Positions 54,025 through 54,853 of a stretch of 64,000 nt of DNA are shown here, in pieces. The notes beneath the pieces were generated by a model. The model was not told the origin of the DNA, made no database searches, and saw only the letters and a list, made by a program, of their open reading frames with translations. Position 1 is the first letter of the stretch. Each line of letters starts with the position of its first letter. The position numbers and the translations under genes are program-made. This DNA comes from Escherichia phage 310Ecol104PP, in sequence record OR062946.1. One strand, given 5' to 3'.

Positions 54025-54101
54025 TGGTCGAGACAGAAGGATTCTAACCTTCAACCTACGGATTAGAAGTCCGTTGCTCTATACAATTGAGCTATGCCTC
54101 G
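54025..54101 (-). tRNA. tRNA-Arg (anticodon UCU)
   Basis: manual fold: acceptor CGAGGCA/TGTCTCG, anticodon loop CTTCTAA, T-loop TTAGAAT, CCA encoded. Confidence 0.9.
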
Positions 54102-54105
54102 TATT

Positions 54106-54180
54106 TGGCGGACGTGATAGGATTCGAACCTATAACCAATCGCTTAACAGGCGATCGCTCTGCCATTGAGCTACACATCC
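54106..54180 (-). tRNA. tRNA-Asn (anticodon GUU)
   Basis: manual fold: acceptor GGATGTG/CACGTCC, D-arm GCTC-AATGGCA-GAGC, anticodon loop CTGTTAA, T-loop TTCGAAT, CCA encoded. Confidence 0.8.
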
Positions 54181-54184
54181 AAAT

Positions 54185-54271
54185 TGGTGGGGAGTGATGG
54201 AGTCGAACCACCCGAGTCGCAATGACAATGGATTTACAGTCCACACCGCTACCTCTACGGGATAACTCCCC
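54185..54271 (-). tRNA. tRNA-Tyr-like (anticodon GUA), long variable arm
   Basis: perfect acceptor GGGGAGT/ACTCCCC, anticodon loop CTGTAAA, variable stem GTC/GAC, T-loop TTCGACT, CCA; D-arm irregular. Confidence 0.6.
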
Positions 54272-54280
54272 AAATTAATT

Positions 54281-54355
54281 TGGTGGCCCTGGGTGGAATT
54301 GAACCACCATCTGGCGATTATGAGTCGCTTGCTTGAACCTTCCAGCTACAGGGCC
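54281..54355 (-). tRNA. tRNA with CAU anticodon (Ile-lysidine or Met; T4 tRNA-Ile position)
   Basis: acceptor GGCCCTG/CAGGGCC, anticodon loop CTCATAA, T-loop TTCAATT, CCA; 1 nt after tRNA-Thr. Confidence 0.85.
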
Positions 54356-54356
54356 T

Positions 54357-54432
54357 TGGTGCTGATTGACGGAATCGAACCGCCGACCTTCTCATTACAA
54401 GTGAGTTGCTCTACCTACTGAGCTAAATCAGC
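54357..54432 (-). tRNA. tRNA-Thr (anticodon UGU)
   Basis: acceptor GCTGATT/AATCAGC, anticodon loop CTTGTAA, T-loop TTCGATT, CCA encoded. Confidence 0.9.
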
Positions 54433-54437
54433 AAAAC

Positions 54438-54527
54438 TGGCGGAGGCGATAGGATTTGAACCTATGAGTCGCCGGAGCGACTGCCGGTTTTCAAGACCGG
54501 TGCATTAAACCACTCTGCCACGCCTCC
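54438..54527 (-). tRNA. tRNA-Ser (anticodon UGA), long variable arm
   Basis: acceptor GGAGGCG/CGCCTCC, anticodon stem CCGGT/ACCGG loop CTTGAAA, T-loop TTCAAAT, CCA. Confidence 0.9.
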
Positions 54528-54529
54528 AG

Positions 54530-54603
54530 TCTCCATACAAGGATTTGAACCTTGGACCTCCTGATCCCAAATCAGGCGCTCTACCAAACTGAGCTACACG
54601 GAG
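54530..54603 (-). tRNA. tRNA-Pro (anticodon UGG), CCA not encoded
   Basis: anticodon loop TTTGGGA, T-loop TTCAAAT; 3' end abuts tRNA-Ser (dimeric precursor as in T4). Confidence 0.88.
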
Positions 54604-54613
54604 TAAATTAAAT

Positions 54614-54687
54614 TGGAGCGGATAATGAGAATCGAACTCACATCATCAGATTGGAAGTCTGAGGTAATACCATTATACGATATCCGC
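54614..54687 (-). tRNA. tRNA-Gly (anticodon UCC)
   Basis: acceptor GCGGATA/TATCCGC, anticodon loop CTTCCAA, T-loop TTCGATT, CCA. Confidence 0.9.
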
Positions 54688-54692
54688 AAATT

Positions 54693-54779
54693 TGGTGCGA
54701 GAAGTGGGACTCGAACCCACAAGGAAATCATTCCGCAGCATTTTAAGTGCTGTGCCTTTACCAATTTGACCATTCTCGC
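54693..54779 (-). tRNA. tRNA-Leu (anticodon UAA), long variable arm
   Basis: acceptor GCGAGAA/TTCTCGC, anticodon loop CTTAAAA, T-loop TTCGAGT, CCA. Confidence 0.9.
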
Positions 54780-54780
54780 G

Positions 54781-54853
54781 CTGGGAATAAAGGACTCGAA
54801 CCTTTGCATCCTGGAATCAAAATCCAGTGCCTTACCAACTTGGCTAATTCCCA
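54781..54853 (-). tRNA. tRNA-Gln (anticodon UUG), CCA not encoded
   Basis: 5' UGGGAAU, anticodon loop TTTTGAT, T-loop TTCGAGT; 3' end abuts tRNA-Leu (dimeric precursor). Confidence 0.9.

What the first reader, a model, noticed from the sequence alone, without database searches (positions are those of the whole stretch)
54025..54853. Ten-gene tRNA array: the T4 set plus tRNA-Asn and a tRNA-Tyr-like gene, no segB
Manual folding gives Gln, Leu, Gly, Pro, Ser, Thr, Ile(CAU) and Arg in the T4 order, including the classic Gln-Leu and Pro-Ser dimeric arrangements without encoded CCA. Two extra tRNA-sized genes lie between Ile and Arg: a canonical tRNA-Asn(GUU) and a type-II tRNA-Tyr(GUA)-like gene with a perfect acceptor stem but an irregular D-arm. 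T4 has the SegB endonuclease gene in this interval as I recall. The array is packed with 1-10 nt spacers.
Basis: partly seen in the sequence, partly recalled or inferred. Interest (0 to 1): 0.5.

Follow-up and report, generated by a model that had tools for sequence, protein, structure and literature searches.

The report
T2-type phage tRNA gene cluster
This is a real block of ten transfer-RNA genes in a T4-like phage, but the same layout (T4's eight tRNA types plus tRNA-Tyr and tRNA-Asn, without the segB endonuclease gene) was described for phage T2L in 2008 and is present in hundreds of sequenced relatives, so it is ordinary.

Summary
ARAGORN finds ten tRNA genes at exactly 54025-54853, all on the minus strand: Gln, Leu, Gly, Pro, Ser, Thr, Ile2(CAU), Tyr, Asn, Arg. 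All ten pass Rfam's tRNA threshold. There is no segB, and T4 has neither Tyr nor Asn.

It is not new. This is the segB-free, T2-type allele of the T-even tRNA cluster, published for T2L in 2008. At least 435 phage records carry the Tyr-Asn segment, and phage G4498 has the identical ten-gene order.

- The CAU and Arg genes are not T4's genes (47/75 and 30/77 identical). Window 54335-53657 is a cassette that replaces T4's Ile-segB-Arg.
- T4's stable RNAs rnaD and rnaC follow at 53659-53395.
- tRNA-Ser does encode CCA; only Gln and Pro lack it.
- The "irregular D-arm" of Tyr comes from ARAGORN's choice of register. Across 11 diverse phages a canonical D-arm pairs in 100% of cells, but a 4-nt connector precedes it instead of 2 nt.

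Published work makes tRNA-Asn the preferred SegB homing site. It also shows that T6's near-identical tRNA-Tyr counters the Septu defence. A defence role for this Asn gene is inference.

The parts
54780..54853 (-). tRNA-Gln(UUG); no encoded CCA; abuts tRNA-Leu (the Gln-Leu dimer arrangement)
   Evidence: ARAGORN; Rfam tRNA 67.4 bits. 65/74 positions identical to T4, with the differences in the anticodon stem-loop.
54693..54779 (-). tRNA-Leu(UAA), class II, CCA encoded
   Evidence: Rfam 59.3 bits; 87/87 identical to T4.
54614..54687 (-). tRNA-Gly(UCC), CCA encoded
   Evidence: Rfam 65.8 bits; 74/74 identical to T4.
54529..54603 (-). tRNA-Pro(UGG); no encoded CCA; 1-2 nt before tRNA-Ser (the Pro-Ser dimer arrangement)
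   Evidence: Rfam 66.8 bits; identical to T4 over 74 nt.
54438..54527 (-). tRNA-Ser(UGA), class II; CCA encoded here, but not in T4
   Evidence: Rfam 62.6 bits. The 87-nt body is identical to T4; the 3' end reads CCA here and TAA in T4.
54357..54432 (-). tRNA-Thr(UGU), CCA encoded; nt 36-41 read UAAUGA (host thrU reads UAAUCA)
   Evidence: Rfam 72.9 bits; 73/76 identical to T4; anticodon arm.
54281..54355 (-). tRNA with CAU anticodon, most likely tRNA-Ile2 (lysidine type). Not orthologous in sequence to T4 tRNA-Ile beyond its first ~20 nt. The left junction of the replacement cassette lies inside this gene, near 54336.
   Evidence: Rfam 59.9 bits; 47/75 identical to T4 Ile. The best E. coli match is an annotated tRNA-Ile at 81.6%, found in 5424/5426 genomes, and it shares the acceptor stem and anticodon arm. 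Homology break to T4.
54185..54271 (-). tRNA-Tyr(GUA), class II, CCA encoded. 7-bp acceptor stem, 4-nt connector UAUC, D-arm CCGU-AGAGGUA-GCGG, variable arm GUC-AUUGC-GAC.
   Evidence: ARAGORN; Rfam tRNA 30.2 bits against a cut-off of 29. Covariation in 11 phages: 100% of cells paired and 16/24 pairs compensatory. 85/87 identical to T6 tRNA-Tyr. The T2L primer #12 from PMC2330249 matches exactly.
54106..54180 (-). tRNA-Asn(GUU), CCA encoded. Identical to the T2 gene, which holds the preferred 27-bp SegB recognition and cleavage site. nt 36-41 read UAAGCG.
   Evidence: Rfam 74.1 bits. Identical to the T2 and G4498 genes. SegB site per PMC2330249; the core motif GGTTCGAATCC and CCAA are present.
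54025..54101 (-). tRNA-Arg(UCU), CCA encoded. Unrelated in sequence to T4 tRNA-Arg. Unusual D-loop (G18 U19) and T-loop (A56).
   Evidence: Rfam 71.1 bits; 30/77 identical to T4 Arg; identical to the G4498 gene.
53656..54006 (-). 116-aa ORF of unknown function, equivalent to T2L 'trna.2 ORF' / T2_136. It is the last element of the cassette that replaces T4's Ile-segB-Arg.
   Evidence: ORF; phrog_3355, function unknown; no Pfam match. T2L primers #24 and #25 match with 1 and 0 mismatches. Non-homologous to T4.
53540..53659 (-). rnaD (species 2 stable RNA) homologue. Homology to T4 resumes exactly here.
   Evidence: 110 identical positions out of 119 against T4 rnaD; T4 annotation; blast segment 53656-53312 at 95.7%.
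53395..53533 (-). rnaC (species 1 stable RNA) homologue
   Evidence: 137/139 identical to T4 rnaC.
53321..53344 (-). Intrinsic-terminator-like hairpin (10-bp stem, 7 G-C pairs, T tract) closing the tRNA/stable-RNA transcription unit
   Evidence: The same sequence is present in T4 downstream of rnaC.

Best explanation
This is the segB-free, T2-type allele of the T-even (Tequatrovirus) tRNA operon. Ten tRNA genes, one small ORF and the two stable RNAs rnaD and rnaC lie head to tail on the minus strand and end at a strong terminator. By analogy with T4, they are transcribed as polycistronic precursors and cut out by host RNase P and 3' processing enzymes, and the host CCA-adding enzyme completes Gln and Pro (established T4 biology, not tested here). 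The left part (Gln to Thr) is the same DNA as in T4. The right part (rest of the CAU tRNA, Tyr, Asn, a different Arg, and the ORF) is an alternative cassette sitting where T4 has Ile-segB-Arg. Eight of the tRNAs read A-ending codons that the AT-rich phage uses heavily. Tyr and Asn do not fit that rule, because each is the only isoacceptor type for its amino acid. Their most likely role is to keep Tyr and Asn decoding going during infection, both because the phage uses these residues heavily and because host defences destroy exactly these host tRNAs (Septu and retron-Eco7 PtuAB cut tRNA-Tyr; PARIS AriB cuts tRNA-Asn). The tRNA-Asn gene is also the preferred cleavage site of the T4/T6 homing endonuclease SegB. 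In a mixed infection with a segB-carrying relative, this allele would therefore be cut and converted. What is shown here: gene content, structure, homology boundaries and selective constraint. What rests on published experiments in relatives: expression and the anti-Septu effect of T6 tRNA-Tyr, and SegB cleavage of the T2L Asn gene. What is inference: the same roles in this phage, and any AriB resistance of this Asn. The confidence given is for the whole statement. The identification as the T2-type allele alone is about 0.95, and the anti-defence role of Tyr and Asn in this phage is about 0.5.
For: - **Ten tRNAs:**
- **Same ten-gene order in a relative:** annotated in phage G4498.
- **Spread of the Tyr-Asn segment:** at least 80% of it is covered in 435 phage records, 100% identical in Shfl2 and 98.9% in T2. 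T2 carries Met/Ile-Tyr-Asn-Arg plus the same ORF.
- **Boundaries against T4:** 97.3% identity down to about 20 nt into the CAU tRNA, and 95.7% from rnaD onward, with nothing homologous in between.
- **T6 intermediate:** T4-type Ile, Tyr, then segB where Asn sits here, then T4-type Arg.
- **Published description:** PMC2330249 describes T2L with Gln, Leu, Gly, Pro, Ser, Met, Tyr, Asn and Arg and no segB. It maps the preferred 27-bp SegB site inside tRNA-Asn and reports 99.6% inheritance of segB with loss of the T2L block. Its Tyr and Asn primers match the window exactly, and the Asn gene is identical to T2's.
- **Tyr is under tRNA-like constraint:** 100% of 264 cells paired, 16/24 pairs with compensatory change, 0/500 shuffles as high, slid controls 43-59%.
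- **Function of the T6 copy:** PMC13096335 reports that T6 tRNA-Tyr (85/87 identical) is detected by northern blot, rescues T6 from Septu when overexpressed, and that deleting the tRNA region sensitises T6; T4, without Tyr, cannot escape.
[quoted passage not shown] The window's Asn reads UAAG and its Thr has G40.
- **Codon demand in 73 window ORFs:** Tyr 44.9 and Asn 57.7 per 1000 codons; the A-ending codons CAA, UUA, GGA, CCA, UCA, ACA, AUA and AGA are all well used.
Against: - No expression, processing or aminoacylation data exist for this phage.
- The Tyr gene only just passes Rfam (30.2 against 29 bits). Its 4-nt acceptor-D connector is non-canonical, and some database records label close homologues 'tRNA-Pseudo/OTHER'.
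- In T6 the phage tRNA-Tyr was itself cleaved by Septu and was described as relatively unstable, so protection there depends on dosage or competition, not resistance. This phage has no segB to amplify the gene.
- In the PARIS study tRNA-Asn was a secondary target, and T4 and T7 did not need it for rescue.
- The window's Asn belongs to a different lineage from T5's, and its resistance to AriB is untested.
- No sigma-70-like promoter was found just upstream of Gln, so the transcription start is not located.
- The host codon frequencies needed for a formal comparison were not computed here.
Confidence: 0.8

Rival explanations
1. Tyr and Asn are there only for translational supply. The AT-rich phage proteome needs about one and a half times more Tyr and Asn decoding than the host's average gene, and the two genes top up the pool, with no relation to host defences.
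For: Window ORFs use Tyr at 44.9 and Asn at 57.7 codons per 1000, about 80% of them NAU. From memory, E. coli genes average roughly 28 and 39 per 1000. The other eight tRNAs fit classic codon compensation. The Tyr+Asn pair recurs in many unrelated AT-rich coliphages and in a phage-plasmid-like element.
Against: Published experiments show that a near-identical tRNA-Tyr matters specifically under Septu attack, and that phage tRNA-Asn contributes to escape from PARIS. T4 grows well with similar codon usage without either gene. The window's Asn and Thr carry substitutions exactly at the AriB motif and cleavage site. The two explanations are not exclusive.
Confidence: 0.3
2. The tRNA-Tyr-like gene is a decaying pseudogene, or a non-decoding RNA that acts only as a decoy substrate, as its marginal score and odd D-arm might suggest.
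For: Rfam scores it at only 30.2 bits, and in E-value mode the tRNA-Sec model scored higher, at 34.4 bits, which is below that model's own cut-off of 47. ARAGORN draws a D-stem with a C-C mismatch. Some records label homologues tRNA-Pseudo/OTHER, and ARAGORN misses three homologues. The 2026 paper notes that overexpressed phage tRNA-Tyr partly suppresses degradation of host tRNA-Tyr, which is compatible with competition.
Against: Every helix of the cloverleaf is kept in all 11 sequences from eight phage genera plus a plasmid, with compensatory changes in 16 of 24 pairs. The anticodon loop CUGUAAA, the A73 discriminator, G1-C72, the encoded CCA and the class II variable arm are all conserved. 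That is not what decay looks like. The mismatch disappears in the canonical register. A decoy-only role is not excluded by sequence alone.
Confidence: 0.07
3. The array is a novel expansion of the T4 tRNA set peculiar to this phage.
For: No record in the phage collection is 99% or more identical to the window across 10 kb; the best matches are 96-97% with mosaic coverage. T4, the textbook reference, lacks both genes.
Against: The identical ten-gene order is annotated in G4498, and EcNP1, Nami and Shfl2 match the whole 2.2 kb as one piece. At least 435 records carry Tyr-Asn. The block was published for T2L, RB1 and RB3 in 2008.
Confidence: 0.02

Closest known systems
Phage T2L / T2 tRNA gene region (EMBL AJ880101; NC_054931; Brok-Volchanskaya et al. 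2008, PMC2330249)
   Same: Same position in the genome. Same Gln-Leu-Gly-Pro-Ser block and same CAU-tRNA, Tyr, Asn, Arg block, followed by the same small ORF and then rnaD/rnaC. No segB. The Asn gene is identical, Tyr differs by 1 nt, and Ser also encodes CCA.
   Different: T2 has an ORF (trna.1 / T2_137) where the window keeps an intact tRNA-Thr, so T2 has nine tRNAs and the window ten. T2's tRNA-Arg differs in both stems by compensatory changes and has canonical D- and T-loops. The window has an extra 157-aa ORF after the terminator.
Phage T4 tRNA gene cluster (NC_000866: eight tRNAs, segB, rnaD, rnaC)
   Same: Gln through Thr is 97% identical DNA. The eight anticodons are the same and in the same order. 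Gln-Leu and Pro-Ser are arranged as adjacent dimers. rnaD, rnaC and the terminator are conserved.
   Different: T4 has segB and no Tyr or Asn. T4's Ile and Arg genes are different sequences (47/75 and 30/77). T4's Arg abuts rnaD, whereas here an ORF intervenes. T4's Ser and Ile lack encoded CCA.
Phage T6 tRNA-rich region with tRNA-Tyr and segB (MH550421; Chihara et al. 2026, PMC13096335)
   Same: The tRNA-Tyr is 85/87 identical and lies right after the CAU tRNA. The same GUC|A sequence sits at the mapped Septu cleavage position in the variable arm.
   Different: T6 has segB exactly where the window has Asn, has T4-type Ile and Arg genes, and lacks Pro and Ser. Without segB, the window phage lacks the SegB-driven tandem amplification route described for T6.
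T5-family anti-defence tRNAs (tRNA-Tyr against retron-Eco7 PtuAB, PMC11555353; tRNA-Lys/Thr/Asn against PARIS AriB, PMC12409363)
   Same: The window's Tyr belongs to the same sequence family as a T5-like tRNA-Tyr (pork27) and has an identical variable arm, GUC-AUUGC-GAC. Its Asn and Thr carry substitutions at the AriB motif and cleavage site, as is reported for T5's variants.
   Different: The phage lineage and genomic context differ. There is no tRNA-Lys here. The window's Asn belongs to a different lineage from T5's. None of the window's tRNAs has been tested against any nuclease.

Membership tests
T2-type (segB-free) allele of the Tequatrovirus tRNA cluster | Lies between the trna.2/trna.3 genes and the rnaD-rnaC-e.8 region, on the same strand as those genes | tested here: met
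   Flanks are 97% and 96% identical to T4's flanks. The flanking ORFs match the PHROG families of the T4/T2 neighbours. rnaD and rnaC are mapped.
T2-type (segB-free) allele of the Tequatrovirus tRNA cluster | Block CAU-tRNA, Tyr, Asn, Arg followed by the T2L 'trna.2' ORF, non-homologous to T4's Ile-segB-Arg | tested here: met
   Window 54355-53312 aligns to T2 at 93.6% over 1046 nt. Primers from PMC2330249 match. No homology to T4 in 54335-53657.
T2-type (segB-free) allele of the Tequatrovirus tRNA cluster | Absence of segB | tested here: met
   No ORF longer than 50 aa lies between the tRNAs, and there is no blastn match to the T4 segB interval.
T2-type (segB-free) allele of the Tequatrovirus tRNA cluster | trna.1 ORF in place of tRNA-Thr (as in T2L/T2) | tested here: not met
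   The window keeps an intact tRNA-Thr, and the trna.1 primer #22 is absent. This matches the G4498/Shfl2 sub-type rather than T2 itself.
tRNA (Rfam RF00005) | Score at or above the gathering threshold of 29 bits, with a cloverleaf | tested here: met
   All ten pass: nine at 59-74 bits and Tyr at 30.2 bits. ARAGORN folds all ten.
Bacterial-type class II tRNA-Tyr | GUA anticodon, long variable arm, A73 discriminator, G1-C72, 7-bp acceptor stem and 5-bp T stem | tested here: met
   Sequence and ARAGORN structure. All helices are 100% paired with compensatory changes across 11 homologues.
Bacterial-type class II tRNA-Tyr | Two-nucleotide connector (positions 8-9) between the acceptor and D stems, as in E. 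coli tyrU | tested here: not met
   The connector is 4 nt (UAUC) in the register that pairs 100%. It is 5 nt in the phAPEC8-like and Karamvirus homologues. E. coli tyrU has 2 nt.
Bacterial-type class II tRNA-Tyr | Charged with tyrosine by the host TyrRS | not testable with these tools
   This needs an aminoacylation assay. Indirect support only: the near-identical T6 gene rescues infection when host tRNA-Tyr is cleaved (PMC13096335).
tRNA-Ile2 (CAU anticodon, lysidine-modified) | CAU anticodon, with a body resembling the host CAU tRNA-Ile rather than tRNA-Met | tested here: met
   The best E. coli match is annotated tRNA-Ile (81.6%, 5424/5426 genomes). The acceptor stem GGCCCU/AGGGCC and the anticodon arm GCGA-CUCAUAA-UCGC are shared.
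tRNA-Ile2 (CAU anticodon, lysidine-modified) | C34 converted to lysidine by TilS, and charging by IleRS | not testable with these tools
   This needs mass spectrometry or an aminoacylation assay.
SegB homing site | 27-bp recognition sequence within tRNA-Asn, with core GGTTCRANTCC and a CCAR cleavage context | tested here: met
   The window's Asn gene is identical to T2's. It contains GGTTCGAATCC and ends CCAA. T2L primer #6 matches exactly. The site is as defined in PMC2330249. The figure with the exact 27 bp is not held, and T2L AJ880101 itself was not compared.
SegB homing site | Cleaved by SegB and converted in mixed infection | not testable with these tools
   This needs an in vitro cleavage assay or a phage cross.
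Phage anti-defence tRNAs | Close homologue of a phage tRNA shown experimentally to counter a tRNA-cleaving defence | tested here: met
   85/87 identical to T6 tRNA-Tyr, which counters Septu. The variable arm is identical to that of a T5-like tRNA-Tyr.
Phage anti-defence tRNAs | Sequence change at the nuclease recognition or cleavage site, relative to the host tRNA | tested here: inconclusive
   Asn has G39 where the host has U39 in the UAAU motif, and Thr has G40 where the host has C40; resistance is untested. Tyr keeps GUC|A at the Septu site like the host and T6, but it has a 5-nt variable loop where the host has 3 nt.

The most novel reading that the evidence does not exclude
The tRNA-Tyr here belongs to a family shared by at least eight phage genera and a phage-plasmid-like element. 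All members keep two or three extra nucleotides between the acceptor stem and an otherwise canonical D-arm, plus an enlarged variable loop. These conserved departures from the host tRNA-Tyr could be an adaptation that changes how host tRNA-Tyr nucleases (PtuAB/Septu-type) see the molecule while keeping it chargeable by TyrRS. In the same way, the G39 change in the Asn anticodon stem could confer resistance to PARIS AriB. As far as I could find in the papers read here, the connector feature has not been pointed out.
Probability: 0.2. Interest if true: 0.4.

Novelty: already known. Interest (0 to 1): 0.15.

Why it matters
For a genome scan this is a clean, correct annotation and not a discovery. 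It identifies the window as a T2-type Tequatrovirus at this locus, and three testable predictions follow. First, a segB-carrying relative should overwrite the 54335-53657 block in a mixed infection, because the Asn gene is SegB's preferred target. Second, the phage has baseline tRNA-Tyr and tRNA-Asn supply against defences of the Septu/retron-Eco7 and PARIS type, which T4 lacks. Third, it lacks the SegB-driven amplification route that lets T6 escape Septu. The comparison also shows why T4 is a poor reference for the 'T-even tRNA set': the right half of the cluster is a swappable cassette. Finally, a marginal covariance-model score can come from a 2-nt insertion rather than from decay, which is relevant to records that label this tRNA-Tyr as a pseudogene.

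Tried and rejected
- **rnaC/rnaD as decayed Tyr/Asn:** I considered that T4's rnaC and rnaD might be decayed descendants of Tyr and Asn. Rejected: both stable RNAs are present in the window downstream of the cassette, at 92% and 99% identity to T4.
- **Tyr as a tRNA-Sec-like or pseudo gene:** I considered this because the tRNA-Sec model scored 34.4 bits. Rejected: that is below the model's cut-off of 47, the anticodon is GUA, and the covariation fits a class II tRNA-Tyr.
- **ARAGORN's D-stem register for Tyr:** only 59% of cells pair in that register, and one pair never forms. Rejected in favour of the canonical register.
- **Recent capture from the host:** Tyr has no blastn match on any E. 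coli chromosome, and Asn gives only partial matches covering less than 80% of the gene, the best of them to tRNA-Thr. Only the CAU tRNA resembles a host gene.
- **Function of the cassette ORFs:** the 116-aa ORF and the 157-aa inserted ORF hit only PHROG families of unknown function and no Pfam family.
- **Promoter:** the scan found no promoter-like site between Gln and the upstream ORF, and the counts were no higher than in shuffled sequence.
- **tRNA-Asn in the 2024 PARIS Nature paper:** no mention. The 2025 follow-up had the data.
- **Source genome:** no near-identical source record was found.
- **Papers on Tequatrovirus tRNA content:** the search returned mostly irrelevant mitochondrial genome papers.
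Full report
**Observation.** ARAGORN run on the whole 64-kb window finds exactly ten tRNA genes. All are on the minus strand, and they occupy exactly the reported interval, 54025-54853. Read 5'->3' on the minus strand the order is Gln(UUG), Leu(UAA), Gly(UCC), Pro(UGG), Ser(UGA), Thr(UGU), a CAU-anticodon tRNA, Tyr(GUA), Asn(GUU) and Arg(UCU). Rfam's tRNA model passes its gathering score for all ten: nine score 59-74 bits, and Tyr scores 30.2 against a cut-off of 29. In E-value mode the tRNA-Sec model beat the tRNA model on Tyr with 34.4 bits, which is below its own cut-off of 47. 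Spacers are 0-10 nt. CCA is encoded in eight genes and is missing only from Gln and Pro, the upstream members of the Gln-Leu and Pro-Ser pairs. Ser does encode CCA here, unlike in T4.

**What the region is.** The 2.2 kb around the array matches 1061 phage records, nearly all T4-like phages of enterobacteria. In 293 of them a single place covers at least 80% of the query. The best match, Escherichia phage vB_EcoM_G4498 (genus Tequatrovirus), is annotated with the same ten tRNAs in the same order. The Tyr-Asn segment alone is covered at 80% or more in 435 records. It is 100% identical in Shigella phage Shfl2 and 98.9% identical in phage T2. The T2 RefSeq record shows Gln, Leu, Gly, Pro, Ser, an ORF, then Met(CAU), Tyr, Asn, Arg and a small ORF. 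No record is near-identical to the window over 10 kb; the best matches are 96-97% with mosaic coverage. The window therefore comes from an ordinary, mosaic Tequatrovirus.

**Comparison with T4.** In T4 the order is Gln, Leu, Gly, Pro, Ser, Thr, Ile, segB, Arg, rnaD, rnaC.
- blastn shows 97.3% identity from upstream of Gln to about 20 nt into the CAU tRNA (window 54962-54336). Identity of 95.7% resumes exactly at the 5' end of rnaD (window 53656-53312).
- The 679 bp in between (54335-53657) have no homology to the 845 bp that T4 has there.
- Gene by gene, Leu and Gly are identical to T4, and Pro and Ser are identical apart from the 3' end. Thr is 73/76 and Gln 65/74. The CAU tRNA is only 47/75, and Arg only 30/77.
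- So the window does not hold 'the T4 set plus two'. It shares the left half with T4 and carries an alternative right-hand cassette: the rest of the CAU tRNA, Tyr, Asn, a different Arg, and a 116-aa ORF.
- rnaD (53659-53540, 110 identical positions out of 119) and rnaC (53533-53395, 137/139) follow. A terminator-like hairpin with a 10-bp stem lies at 53344-53321.

**T6 as an intermediate.** T6 has a T4-type Ile, then a Tyr that is 85/87 identical to the window's, then segB exactly where the window has Asn, then a T4-type Arg.

**It has been described.** Brok-Volchanskaya et al. 2008 (PMC2330249) sequenced the T2L, RB1 and RB3 tRNA regions (AJ880101, AJ884577, AJ884578).
- They reported that these phages lack segB. 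T2L carries Gln, Leu, Gly, Pro, Ser, Met, Tyr, Asn and Arg plus two ORFs.
- In T4 x T2L crosses segB was inherited by 99.6% of progeny, with loss of the ~1250-bp T2L block encoding Met, Tyr, Asn, Arg and the ORFs.
- Their T2L primers for Tyr and Asn match the window with no mismatch. Their 'trna.2 ORF' primers match the 116-aa ORF with 1 and 0 mismatches. Their 'trna.1 ORF' primer has no match, which fits the window keeping Thr where T2 has that ORF.
- The window's Asn gene is identical to T2's and G4498's, and it contains GGTTCGAATCC and a terminal CCAA. This allele is therefore the uninvaded recipient form of the SegB homing locus.

**Is the Tyr gene real?** ARAGORN draws a D-stem, UCCC/GCGG, with a C-C mismatch, and the Rfam alignment shifts the acceptor stem by 2 nt. 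I collected homologues from T2, T6, an E. coli plasmid, and phages that are rV5-like, another Vequintavirinae, Mydovirus, FelixO1-like, T5-like, Jiaodavirus, Sugarlandvirus, phAPEC8-like and Karamvirus, and aligned them.
- All share an invariant core, CCGUAGRGGUAGCGG. This reads as a canonical D-arm: stem CCGU/GCGG and loop AGAGGUA, with A14, G18-G19 and A21.
- With that register, 100% of 264 pair cells in 11 sequences form standard pairs, and 16 of 24 pairs show compensatory changes. That includes 6 of 7 acceptor pairs and one D-stem pair. No shuffle in 500 reaches the observed values, and structures slid by 1-3 columns pair in only 43-59% of cells.
- With ARAGORN's register the D-helix pairs in only 59% of cells, and one pair never forms.
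- The gene is therefore a strongly constrained class II tRNA-Tyr. Its real peculiarity is a 4-nt connector (UAUC here; 5 nt in two lineages) between the acceptor and D stems, where E. coli tyrU has 2 nt. This explains the marginal score and the 'tRNA-Pseudo/OTHER' labels in some records.
- The gene has no detectable match on any E. coli chromosome. It does occur at 94.3% identity on ~72-112 kb plasmids in 269 of 5426 complete genomes. On one of those plasmids it sits in an Asn-Tyr-Thr-Ser cluster next to a DNA ligase and an integrase.

**The other cassette tRNAs.** The CAU tRNA's best host match in 5424 of 5426 E. coli genomes is an annotated tRNA-Ile (81.6%). The two share the acceptor stem GGCCCU/AGGGCC and the anticodon arm, so tRNA-Ile2 (lysidine type) is the likely identity. 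The modification itself cannot be tested here. Arg(UCU) is identical to G4498's. It has G18-U19 in the D-loop and A56 in the T-loop, an apparent swap of the G19-C56 tertiary pair to U19-A56. T2's Arg is canonical and differs by compensatory stem changes.

**How it most likely works.** By analogy with T4 (established knowledge, not tested here), the genes are transcribed together, matured by host RNase P and 3' processing, and Gln and Pro are completed by the host CCA-adding enzyme.
- Eight tRNAs read A-ending codons (CAA, UUA, GGA, CCA, UCA, ACA, AUA, AGA), which are well used in 73 window ORFs.
- Tyr and Asn do not fit that rule. The phage's demand for them is high: 44.9 and 57.7 codons per 1000, about 80% of them NAU. 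From memory, E. coli averages about 28 and 39.
- Chihara et al. 2026 (PMC13096335) show that Septu cleaves tRNA-Tyr in the variable arm. T6 tRNA-Tyr is expressed, and its overexpression rescues T6. Deleting the tRNA region sensitises T6. T4, which lacks Tyr, cannot escape. SegB drives tandem amplification of a Tyr-segB unit.
- The window's Tyr keeps the same GUC|A sequence at that site, so any protection would come from dosage, as in T6. With no segB, this phage lacks that amplification route.
- Its variable arm is identical to that of a T5-like tRNA-Tyr. The T5 tRNA-Tyr is reported to resist retron-Eco7 because of its variable loop (citing PMC11555353).
[quoted passage not shown] T5's Lys, Thr and Asn together neutralise PARIS.
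- The window's Asn reads UAAGCG at 36-41, where the host has UAAUCC. Its Thr reads UAAUGA, where host thrU has UAAUCA.
- These defence roles are inference for this phage. A pure supply role remains a live alternative, and the two are not exclusive.

**Verdict.** The finding is a correct annotation of a known, common arrangement. Its novelty class is 'already known' and its interest is low. The most novel residue is structural: a conserved 4-nt acceptor-D connector in a tRNA-Tyr family spread across many coliphage genera, and site-specific substitutions in Asn and Thr. Both could be tested as nuclease-evasion features.

Noticed in passing
window 54025-54101 (-): tRNA-Arg(UCU) has D-loop AAUUGUAUA (G18 U19) and T-loop UUAGAAU (A56), so the near-universal G19-C56 tertiary pair looks swapped to U19-A56. 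The gene is identical in phage G4498, while T2's Arg is canonical. The change also breaks SegB's core motif GGTTCRANTCC; only Gly and Arg of the ten lack that motif.
   Followed up: partly
window 52789-53311, ORF 52794-53267 (-): A ~520-bp segment carrying a 157-aa ORF (phrog_2280, unknown function, no Pfam match) is inserted between the rnaC terminator and the e.8 homologue. It is absent at that position from both T4 and T2.
   Followed up: partly
L005 2921-3922 (E. coli plasmid p009_B, NZ_CP048306): The phage-type tRNA-Tyr (94.3% identical) occurs on ~72-112 kb plasmids in 269 of 5426 complete E. coli genomes. On this plasmid it sits in an Asn-Tyr-Thr-Ser cluster beside a DNA ligase, a GrxA-family glutaredoxin and an integrase, which looks phage-plasmid-like. 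It has no match on any E. coli chromosome.
   Followed up: partly
L004 2648-2722 (phage T6, MH550421): The gene annotated as T6 tRNA-Thr begins with the 5' end of tRNA-Pro (CTCCGTGTAGCTCAG...) and continues as Thr. It looks like a Pro/Thr hybrid left by a deletion that removed Pro and Ser. ARAGORN does not call it.
   Followed up: no
L013 489-573 and L009 401-486: The tRNA-Asn(GUU) genes of Klebsiella phage KP01 (Jiaodavirus) and Escherichia phage PNJ1809-36 (phAPEC8-like) are 85-86 nt long and carry a long extra arm, which is unusual for Asn.
   Followed up: no
window 54780-54853 (-): tRNA-Gln differs from T4's at 9 positions, concentrated in the anticodon stem-loop (stem CUGGA/UCCAG and loop UUUUGAU here; loop CUUUGAC in T4). 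The rest of the gene is identical.
   Followed up: no
window 53451-53600 (-): A 49-aa ORF listed mechanically here lies inside the rnaD/rnaC stable-RNA genes, so it is almost certainly not a protein gene.
   Followed up: yes
L015 301-382 (Enterococcus phage GVEsP-1): An unannotated tRNA-Tyr-like sequence from the same family, with the same acceptor stem and D-arm core, occurs in an Enterococcus phage. Its T-loop is aberrant (UGCAACU) and it has no encoded CCA. ARAGORN does not call it.
   Followed up: no
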